Below are positions 19,870-58,905 of a stretch of 64,000 bases of DNA, in pieces. The stretch's first letter is position 1, and the number at the start of each line of letters is the position of its first letter. A program made the translations under genes and the position numbers. This stretch comes from Octopus vulgaris (Eukaryota): positions 14,136,001 to 14,200,000 of the forward strand of contig OX597834.1 of NCBI GenBank assembly GCA_951406725.2. The letters run 5' to 3'. The notes beneath the pieces are model-generated. The model was not told the origin of the DNA. It made no database searches and was given only the letters and a program-made list of their open reading frames with translations.

Positions 19870-20497
19870 TGTTTGACTTTTGCTTTACATTTGCACAAGC
19901 TGGTTCCAAGTCTCACTCAGAGACCTCAAGAGACAACAAGTTGGAAGTTCATGCTGGTGTAATGCCTAGGGTGCCATATATTTAGTTTTGTACTTAGTGT
20001 TGTACTAGAGAATATCTAAAAAAAAAAAAGCAGACGGAAATTATGTTTGTTTTAAAACTTAAGATTACATAGAAAGTATTTTGTGTAGGATATGAGCAGT
20101 TCCCATGAGCACTATCTTTTGAATTTCTGTCGTGTTCGGGTTTCCTGGTTTCTGAGTTAGGTAGCAACGCGCCCATTTCGCTATCATTCCTAGGGCACCT
20201 ATGACAACATGTATTGTTTTAGTCTTCAGGTTCCACAAGTTGCTGATTTCTATTTCAAGATCTTCCTATTTGCTCAGTTTCTGGTAGGTCTTGACAGGTA
20301 CGTTTATATCGATTGGGACAGTCATATCAATGAGGAGGCCTGATTTTTGTCTGAAGTCTTTCTTTAATGTCTGGCCTGTTCGTGTCTATCTTTCTGTCAG
20401 TTTGAATGGTGAAATTCCAGAGGAGTGAGATGTGGTTATTTTCAAGCACTGGAGGTGGTTTGTGTTCCCACCAGTTTTTATCATGGGGCAAGTCCAC
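19870..20497 (-). mobile_element. R4/Dong-clade non-LTR retrotransposon 3' end (restriction-like endonuclease plus 3' UTR)
   Basis: WWEHKPPPVLEN..LLWNFTIQTDRKIDTNRPDI..IDMTVPID..VVIGALG..IQKIVLMGTAHILHKILSM* (stop 20065-20067). The 3' end joins (TAA)n, the known Dong target. Confidence 0.85.
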
Positions 20498-20650
20498 GCT
20501 TCAAAAGATTTAAATAAATCTGACAGTTGATAAGACCATATACAAGCTACGAAAACAGAAAACAACTCCTGAAGCATGCAATTTAAAATTATAGGCGTTG
20601 GTATGGCTGTGTGGGTAGCAATAACAATTTTCAACATAACTGTTTCGTTC

Positions 20651-21273
20651 AGAGATAACGAAATTAAAATTTTCTAAAGGTTAGTTGCCCGCTATCAGTT
20701 CAATTTTCCTGTAACAAGTGGATTATATGTAGATAAATCAGTGTATTGACTATAGAATAACCTTCTTTAGCGCTTAAATATAAGATGTTTATAGTTCAAC
20801 CGTAAAGGTTTTTTAAATATACTGCCACGCTTTTTGATGGAATACTTTTCTGTAGAGAAAGGGACTTCATCCTATATTGTTAGTAGTAAACTCACTGCTT
20901 GTTACAAGGGGACCGGTAACCATTACAATATGTAGCGGCGATAGGTCAACACGTTGTTCTGAGACTGACCAAGGAATTTTTATTTTTAGATATAAATGAT
21001 GTACTTAAATGTGGTTGTGTCTTTAGCTTCTGCTTTTTCCATGATCACATGTGAGTATTTCATTTATGTTCCCTCGTAAGCTCTACTGAAGAAGAATATA
21101 TCCTTTATAGGGATTAATTCCAAAATTGATTCAATATAGAGATAACGCAATTTAAATTTTCTAAAGGTTAGTTGCCCGCTTTCAGTTCAATTTTCCTGTA
21201 ACAAGTGGATTATAAGTGGATAAATCAGTGTATTGGCTATAGAATAACCTTATTTAGCCCTTAATTATAAGAT
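20651..21273 (+). mobile_element. Retrozyme/PLE pLTR-like partial tandem: 487-bp monomer plus 136-bp repeat with degenerate HHR
   Basis: Direct repeats 20651-20786 and 21138-21273; HHR fold at 21081-21141; 3' end at (TA)n. Confidence 0.7.
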
Positions 21274-21299
21274 ATATATATATATATATATATATATGC

Positions 21300-21945
21300 A
21301 TAATAAATTTATCCTCATCATTATCAATCTCATTTTCAGGTGCATCTTCATACAACTTGTCTCCTGATGGAAGTCCATATTTCTTACATATTTCCCAGTG
21401 GATTGTCTTTGCTTTGCAACAATTTCATGTCTCATAGACTTATACTGATTCCGTGCGAGCTTATAACATTCACCGAGTATGTAGCTCAATGTTTCTTCTC
21501 GATATTTGCAGAATCTGCGCAATGGTAACACAGTACATACTTTCCTACATCTTGCACTTTTTGTCCACAGGGCTTCATCCTAAGCAGCACGATTAAACCT
21601 TCTCTCTCTTCTTCGAAAATTCCCTTTCCCCAACAAATCCGCATGCCTCTTCGCCTCTTTCTATTTCAGTATTGATCATAAACTGAGGCTGTAAATCTTT
21701 TCCGTTATAACTTTGCTATTTCGTTTCCCATACTTCATCTTTATTTTATCCTTATCTTAGTATGCTTGCATTGCTTATCGGTGCAAGCAATTCTTCAGGG
21801 TATCGTTAGCATACCGACTGAGACATTTTCCTTCCATCTTCACACAGTCCTCCACATTGATCAATGCTCTTCCTCCTCCGTTTTCCCGTTTAACATACAG
21901 TCTGTCCTCATCTGCCCTCTTCTACAAAGCCTTATATGTTATCTT
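21300..21945 (-). mobile_element. Second R4/Dong-type fragment (region C-terminal to the RT core, with zinc knuckle)
   Basis: DRLYVKRENGGGRALI...RFCKYREETLSYILGECYKLARNQYKSMRHEIVAK / IHWEICKKYGL. Confidence 0.75.
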
Positions 21946-36395: not shown

Positions 36396-36727
<332 letters not shown>

Positions 36728-48653: not shown

Positions 48654-48823
48654 AAATGCCATAGGAATGAGAACCCTGGTTCGATTTTTCCCAAACACAC
48701 CTGATGAAGGCTGGTATATCAGCCGAAATGTTGTGCTAATCGGATTAGGACAAATATCCGTCAAATATAAATTATGTAAATAATCTAAATAACGTACATA
48801 ATTCCTCATCTCTTAAATAAAGA
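48651..48823 (+). mobile_element. HHR-bearing PLE pLTR-like fragment after (ATT)n
   Basis: 48698-48735: CAC-CUGAUGA-A-GGCUG-GUAUAU-CAGCC-GAAAU-GUU^GUG. Confidence 0.68.
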
Positions 48824-58259: not shown

Positions 58260-58574
58260 GAAATATATATATATTGTATATAGATAGATAGATAGATAGA
58301 ATAATAGATAGATAGATATACAGACACGAAGATATGTAGAGAGACAGACATAAAACCTGATTTAAAGTTGAGACTTCTTGAATGCCATCAATGATATTCA
58401 TATCAGTAATTGTTCAAACTATTGTATAAAAGAAGAGGCATGATAATACGTCGTACCTATATCGATATACGATTACTCAGCATAATATGCAGGTTTGATT
58501 GGTTACCAAACAAAAATAAGTTAGAATATGCGACAGCCTTTCCTTAGTACATTTACATACGCACACACATGTAC

Positions 58575-58610
<36 letters not shown>

Positions 58611-58905
58611 GTACATGTGTGTGCGTGTGTAAATGTACTAATGAAAGGCTGTCGCATATTCTAACTTATTTTTGTTTGGTAACCAATCAAACCTGCATAT
58701 TATGCTGAGTAATCGTATATCGATATAGGTACGACGTGTTATCATGCCTCTTCTTTTATACAATAGTTTGAACAATTACTGATATGGATATCATTGATGG
58801 CATTCAAGAAGTTTCAACTTTAAATCAGGTTTTATGTCTGTCTCTCTATATATCTTCGTGTCTGTATATCTATCTATCTATCTATATACAATATATATAT
58901 ATTTC

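What the first reader, a model, noticed from the sequence alone, without database searches (positions are those of the whole stretch)
20651..21273. Monomer-plus-partial repeat that begins next to its own ribozyme cleavage site
136-bp direct repeats lie 487 bp apart. The HHR fold (CUCUA-CUGAAGA..[A]AAA-UUGAUUCAA-UA^UAGAG, with G12 changed to A) predicts a cut after 21136. The upstream copy starts at AGAGATAACG, 1 nt downstream of the equivalent site. This fits reverse transcription of a self-cleaved, possibly circular ~487-nt RNA for more than one turn (inference), and resembles retrozyme or tandem pLTR structure.
Basis: partly seen in the sequence, partly recalled or inferred. Interest (0 to 1): 0.75.

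Follow-up and report, generated by a model that had tools for sequence, protein, structure and literature searches.

The report
Penelope-driven hammerhead retrozyme family copy
This repeat is one slightly damaged copy of a family of several hundred small non-coding jumping elements that carry a self-cutting-RNA motif, land in TA repeats, and are likely copied by Penelope-type enzymes, probably from a looped RNA; its start beside the cut site is a coincidence.

Summary
The repeat and the hammerhead (HHR) are real. They belong to a dispersed, non-coding ~487-bp family (413 exact hits to one 18-mer). G12 is G in 40 of 42 HHR copies, so the window's G12A is decay. Instead the 3' ends are fixed at two sites, A (~136 nt past the cut) and B (~235), nearly always in (TA)n. 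Half of the insertions are head-to-head pairs, which join one A arm to one B arm (49 of 50; then 39 of 41, none B+B). This is the tail-and-inversion anatomy of Penelope-like elements (PLEs). The whole unit shows compensatory pairing, and the HHR core is conserved across ~30% divergence. Best reading: a non-LTR retrozyme likely mobilised by a PLE enzyme priming on both target strands, probably from a circular RNA (about even odds against uncleaved tandem transcripts). No RNA evidence; no sequence-matched autonomous partner found. The scan noted A+B arms before, in PLE stubs of other genomes.

The parts
20651..21137 (+). Full 487-bp non-coding unit (one turn), 96.3% identical to the family majority
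21138..21273 (+). Partial second unit, ending at fixed 3' end A (inferred RT start site A)
21081..21141 (+). Type I hammerhead motif, predicted cut after 21136; G12A at 21122 and an A.C mismatch closing helix II
20787..20885 (+). About 99-nt 'tail' between end A and end B inside the upstream unit, holding a covarying hairpin (~20836-20871)
21272..21297 (.). (TA)13 target microsatellite at the 3' junction
20503..20650 (.). Unique 5' flank; contigs of three other runs follow it to 20647 and then leave the window's sequence
20030..20502 (-). Unrelated neighbour: young 5'-truncated non-LTR retrotransposon remnant (R4/Dong-like label recalled from its translation; left limit approximate)
21302..21700 (-). 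Unrelated neighbour: older non-LTR retrotransposon remnant (66-82% to relatives), cut off at the TA run; extends beyond 21700

Best explanation
This is a 5'-truncated, single-armed insertion of a dispersed non-coding ~487-bp hammerhead element (non-LTR retrozyme type) that is likely mobilised in trans by an endonuclease-bearing Penelope-like element, probably from a circular unit-length RNA. Shown: copy number, two fixed 3' ends in (TA)n, scattered 5' ends, read-through of the cut site, A+B head-to-head pairs, conserved HHR core, covarying whole-unit fold. Inferred: loci with two HHRs are transcribed, cut and ligated to a circle; a PLE RT-GIY-YIG dimer nicks both strands of (TA)n; one nick primes at internal site A and the other at B; the cDNAs stop at variable points and are joined to each other (inverted pair) or to host DNA (as here) through short overlaps. 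My odds: PLE-mobilised non-autonomous element 0.9, two-strand priming 0.75, circular template about 0.55.
For: Family on many contigs; no frame over 54 aa in the doubled unit. 92 of 102 arms end in a TA run; 15 of 102 exceed one turn. A+B in 49 of 50 pairs with both ends typed (p about 1e-14), repeated in a pre-registered sample: 39 A, 0 B, 2 other of 41 partners. Both arms stop within 10 nt of the same template position in 16 of 89 pairs vs 3.7 expected, and arms share subfamily alleles (35 of 546 polymorphic columns differ), which suggests one RNA. In 40 of 89 pairs the A arm runs over 20 nt further than the B arm, so fold-back of B cannot explain them. Tandem units within an insertion are same-aged (76 vs 67 derived changes) with no position-specific variants (11 same- vs 18 opposite-polarity recurrences). 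Longest array seen is 2.64 turns. Circular fold z -2.6 to -6.2; 12 of 71 pairs change on both sides; HHR core 33 of 34 columns conserved vs 69% elsewhere. Two autonomous PLE families in the genome show two 3' ends into (TA)n. Two internal RT starts, both-strand priming and an AT-rich target are shown in vitro for an anole PLE (PMC11167929).
Against: No sequence-matched autonomous partner among 76 PLE loci examined or upstream of any arm. In PMC11167929 HHR mutants did not reduce insertion and unprocessed RNA was the main substrate. Only 31 of 148 HHR copies keep G10.1-C11.1 and one subfamily has C at position 4, so cleavage may be weak in young subfamilies. Matched stops of the two arms imply a shared RNA end or obstacle, which an intact circle lacks. 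A predicted collision of the two RTs on one circle was not replicated. The covariation structure was derived from the same alignment and the rows are related. Shared alleles within a locus can also come from gene conversion or from same-age sources.
Confidence: 0.6

Rival explanations
1. Same element and enzyme, but the template is an uncleaved linear read-through transcript of a tandem source locus; the HHR is conserved for another step and tandems are restored by template jumps.
For: RT passes the cut site freely; unprocessed RNA is the main substrate in vitro for the anole PLE (PMC11167929); helix II closing pair lost in most young copies; matched arm stops fit a linear RNA end.
Against: No long arrays among the 40 best of 1788 candidates; no position-specific variants between tandem units; no pile-up at one start site; closed ~500-nt unit and HHR core kept across ~30% divergence.
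Confidence: 0.28
2. Tandems arise when a new copy inserts seamlessly into site A or B of an older copy.
For: PMC11167929 proposes nicking within the element's own pLTR; sites A and B are AT-rich.
Against: Upstream and downstream units are equally diverged (76 vs 67) and share subfamily and rare alleles (14 of 493 polymorphic columns differ; 21 rare shared, 12 of them from L088).
Confidence: 0.06
3. One reading: RT runs off the 5' end of a ribozyme-cleaved RNA, which sets the start at 20651.
For: The window copy starts 1 nt after the cut; 4 of 181 arms in the first set start within 4 nt of a cut site.
Against: 1 of 59 and 0 of 43 arms stop within 3 nt of the cut. The first base of the cleavage product is missing, and three bases before 20651 are not shared with the contigs of three other runs, so the junction looks like end-joining.
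Confidence: 0.04
4. Ordinary local tandem duplication of host DNA.
For: None beyond the repeat itself.
Against: Hundreds of dispersed copies with the same 3' ends, target and inversions.
Confidence: 0.01

Closest known systems
Metazoan non-LTR retrozymes (Cervera and de la Pena 2020, PMC7229834, Results and Discussion read; Li et al. 2026, 10.64898/2026.07.22.740005, abstract to Discussion read)
   Same: Non-coding head-to-tail unit with one type I HHR, low GC, highly self-paired predicted circle, co-occurrence with PLEs; 487 bp lies inside the 51-972 bp range of Li et al.
   Different: Mostly dispersed copies of under two turns, not long arrays; larger than the 170-400 nt circles shown by northern blot; PLE-type ends and inversions are mapped here, whereas the sections read only propose PLE mobilisation or support it by homology and co-occurrence; expression and cleavage untested.
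Insertions of EN+ Penelope-like elements: pLTR, inverted 5'-truncated copy, tail at one end (PMC3846280 passages and Discussion; PMC8557442 passages; PMC4209133 Results and Discussion)
   Same: Partial tandems, head-to-head inversions, optional tail on one arm, AT-rich or microsatellite targets, HHR with palindromic helix III.
   Different: No ORF: sequence after end B closes back onto the HHR; tail about 99 nt instead of 30-40; no autonomous family with this pLTR found.
Anole Poseidon PAc in vitro (Frangieh et al. 2024, PMC11167929, main text read, supplements not)
   Same: Two internal RT start sites downstream of the HHR cut define the tail; both strands nicked and extended; predicted dimer; no ends at the HHR cut.
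   Different: That paper saw no difference in start site between strands and does not, in the main text, report an obligatory one-A-one-B pairing or matched stops; its element is autonomous.
Non-autonomous Chlamys PLEs such as MRC1 (PMC8557442 passage)
   Same: Non-autonomous, pLTR-forming, head-to-tail insertions.
   Different: Those resemble autonomous 3' ends, and N-terminal-EN PLEs are described as lacking canonical HHRs.

Membership tests
Type I hammerhead ribozyme | Conserved core CUGANGA / GAAA / UH with helices I-III | tested here: met
   Family level: G12 in 40 of 42; core, stem I and stem III 33 of 34 columns conserved between old and young subfamilies. The window copy itself carries G12A.
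Type I hammerhead ribozyme | G10.1-C11.1 pair closing helix II | tested here: inconclusive
   Present in old subfamilies, A.C or C.C in most young ones: 31 of 148 G-C.
Type I hammerhead ribozyme | Self-cleavage | not testable with these tools
   Needs in vitro transcription.
Non-LTR retrozyme | Short non-coding head-to-tail unit with one type I HHR | tested here: met
   Longest frame 54 aa; 19 cut-to-cut units of 478-501 bp in 18 loci.
Non-LTR retrozyme | At least two consecutive complete HHRs in a locus (Li et al. 'active' criterion) | tested here: met
   Met by other loci such as L030, L044, L080; not met by the window copy (one HHR, G12A).
Non-LTR retrozyme | Highly self-paired predicted circular RNA | tested here: met
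   z -2.6 to -6.2 against 40 shuffles each; 12 of 71 pairs with two-sided change (structure taken from the same alignment).
Non-LTR retrozyme | Expressed as linear and circular RNA | not testable with these tools
   Only contigs available, none on record as RNA.
Non-LTR retrozyme | Target-site duplication longer than 4 bp when present | tested here: inconclusive
   Targets are (TA)n, so a duplication cannot be read; the window's flanks do not match.
EN+ PLE insertion signature | Two fixed 3' ends (tail), variable 5' truncation, inverted arm with tail on one side, AT-rich target | tested here: met
Autonomous PLE | RT plus GIY-YIG ORF between pLTRs | tested here: not met
   No ORF in the unit; no PLE ORF joined to any arm without a TA run between.
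Non-autonomous PLE derivative | Terminal homology to an autonomous PLE of the same genome | tested here: inconclusive
   Only short AT-rich hits in 46 and 30 PLE loci; thousands of candidates were not scored.

The most novel reading that the evidence does not exclude
A long-lived lineage of viroid-like ~490-nt circular RNAs, selected for pairing along their whole length, parasitises a PLE enzyme dimer whose two active sites start at two different sites of one RNA molecule, one per DNA strand; the genomic copies are a fossil record of this twin-start, rolling-circle reverse transcription and explain both the PLE tail and the head-to-head inversion.
Probability: 0.35. Interest if true: 0.7.

Novelty: new member of a known kind. 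Interest (0 to 1): 0.4.

Why it matters
How animal retrozymes move, and why PLE insertions are tandem, inverted and tailed, are open points in the papers read. This family links the two with countable anatomy: a closed non-coding HHR unit carrying the full PLE insertion signature, a near-strict one-A-one-B rule, and matched stops that point to one RNA template. It gives a small RNA with two mapped start sites for an in vitro test. The class, the PLE link and the 'tail at one end' are already in print, and the locus itself is a decayed copy.

Tried and rejected
Rfam scans found no HHR. 5' pile-up at the cut site: rejected twice. Collision of two RTs on one circle: hint of 9 A-arm stops at unit 247-276 (scan-corrected p 0.087) not replicated (0 stops, 1.2 expected). 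Pairing of site A with site B: 6 bp possible in 96% of cells but no two-sided change and it crosses a covarying helix, so unsupported. Autonomous partner: two abundant PLE families share target and two-end layout but not sequence. Expression: no RNA holder listed; contigs of X1-X4 cover the family but cannot show transcription or circles. The empty site could not be rebuilt: the old LINE on the right does not continue into the left flank, and joints inside the TA run were skipped by the tool. Long tandem arrays were sought only among the 40 best of 1788 DNA-search candidates, so their absence is a lower-bound result. Literature searches gave no paper on this family or on an obligatory A+B rule; subscription papers and the supplements of the papers read were not seen and may bear on that.

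Full report
Observation. The repeat is there: 20651-20793 and 21138-21280, 92% identical, 487 apart, followed by (TA)13. Rfam does not find it and the lone copy does not fold significantly.

It is a family. The window lies in a 2.8-Gb, microsatellite-rich genome (its likeness to an octopod is my recollection, not tested). The DNA search gave 1138 candidates, of which 40 were scored, at 88-97% identity. Exact motifs hit 380 and 413 times, reversed controls 0. Among 42 HHR copies found with the window as query, 40 have G12. An older subfamily, 71% identical by majority columns, is also a closed ~500-bp unit with the same two ends. The doubled unit has no frame over 54 aa.

The ends. In 68 insertions taken from the first 100 places of a motif near the 3' end, there are 102 arms, 62 ending at site A (~136-143) and 40 at site B (~232-238); 92 run into a TA repeat and 15 are longer than one turn. 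Arms with other ends were left out of these counts. 5' ends are scattered. Of 59 arms that reach the cut site, 1 stops within 3 nt and 58 pass (about 1.8 expected). In 56 new loci picked by their B end after I noted the test, 0 of 43 stop there. So the start at 20651 is not a family rule. Contigs of three other runs follow the unique flank to 20647 and then leave the window's sequence, consistent with an empty site and an end-joined 5' junction; the site could not be rebuilt.

Inversions. 34 of the 68 insertions have two typed arms head to head. Over 137 loci there were 66 such pairs: 49 A+B, 1 A+A (one arm lacks the TA flank), 16 with an untyped end. The new sample gave 39 A, 0 B and 2 other partners among 41 (L326/L327 and L309/L333/L334 look like duplicated sites and were not removed). 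Inner junctions overlap by a few bases in 53 of 89 pairs. Both arms stop within 10 nt of the same template position in 16 of 89 pairs against 3.7 by permutation, 8 in each sample; overall arm lengths are uncorrelated, and in 40 pairs the A arm goes over 20 nt further than the B arm. Arms mostly share subfamily alleles, though L008 looks mixed. I infer priming on both nicked strands, one at A and one at B, often on one RNA. Fold-back cannot give the pairs with the longer A arm.

Circle or line. Tandem units of one insertion are equally diverged, show no position-specific variants, and share rare alleles more often than nearest other-locus segments (21 in 6967 columns, 12 from L088, vs 11 in 28930). 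The longest array seen is 2.64 turns. The unit folds well as a circle, 12 of 71 consensus pairs change on both sides (caveats above), and the HHR core is held at 33 of 34 columns against 69% elsewhere. These fit a unit-length circle. Against: most young copies have lost G10.1-C11.1, a collision signal failed to replicate, and HHR mutants did not affect insertion by the anole PLE (PMC11167929). There are no usable RNA data. I put the circle at about 0.55.

The enzyme. The genome holds many intact-looking PLE frames: a family with 781-aa open frames, RT and GIY-YIG, with two ends 34 nt apart, and a second family with frames up to ~717 aa and two ends about 73 nt apart. Both end in (TA)n, and one inverted A+B case was seen in each (L221; L363 with L364). 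Neither matches this unit in sequence, so the partner is unidentified.

Known work. Retrozyme circles and their proposed PLE mobilisation: PMC7229834 and 10.64898/2026.07.22.740005. HHRs in pLTRs and a circle model for tandems: PMC4209133. Inverted pLTR with a tail on one side: PMC3846280 and PMC8557442. Two internal RT starts: PMC11167929. Earlier notes of this scan report long-plus-short inverted arms in PLE stubs of other genomes; I had the count before reading them, and no note matched this sequence.

Verdict. A new member of a known kind: a decayed copy of a PLE-dependent retrozyme family. What is worth keeping is the family-level anatomy, which makes the PLE mechanism testable on a small RNA. 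Interest 0.4.

Noticed in passing
window 36420-36620 (+), core at 36501: Short insert between TA runs with a minimal hammerhead (CUGACGA, short helix II, GAAA); likely a stub of another PLE family.
   Followed up: no
window 48655-48800 (+), core at 48701: Another minimal hammerhead (CUGAUGA, helix II, GAAA) just after a (TAT)n run.
   Followed up: no
window 58480-58700: Near-perfect ~220-bp palindrome centred on (TA)16; gave sub-threshold miRNA hits; MITE-like or fold-back insert.
   Followed up: no
L211-L225, e.g. L211:600-5360: Young autonomous PLE with many 781-aa open frames, a long 3' UTR with repeated motifs, an upstream open region, and a candidate U3-A8 variant hammerhead conserved across its subfamilies.
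   Followed up: partly
L344-L365: Second abundant PLE family whose HHR core mostly reads CCGAAGA (C at position 4), like the L088 subfamily of the retrozyme; may be a tolerated natural variant.
   Followed up: partly
L212:5340-5800 and L100 near 5250: Sister small element with covarying HHR stems I and III and related flanks, in inverted pairs; a second family of the same kind.
   Followed up: partly
window ~21050-21056 (unit ~400): A GT(A/G)AGT string, like a splice donor, is kept across subfamilies upstream of the HHR; PLE pLTRs can hold an intron (PMC4209133), but it also lies in a covarying helix.
   Followed up: no
L088:2864-4141: 2.64-turn copy whose units differ at 1 of 487 columns while its closest relatives are 96-97% identical: very young, or recently homogenised.
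   Followed up: partly
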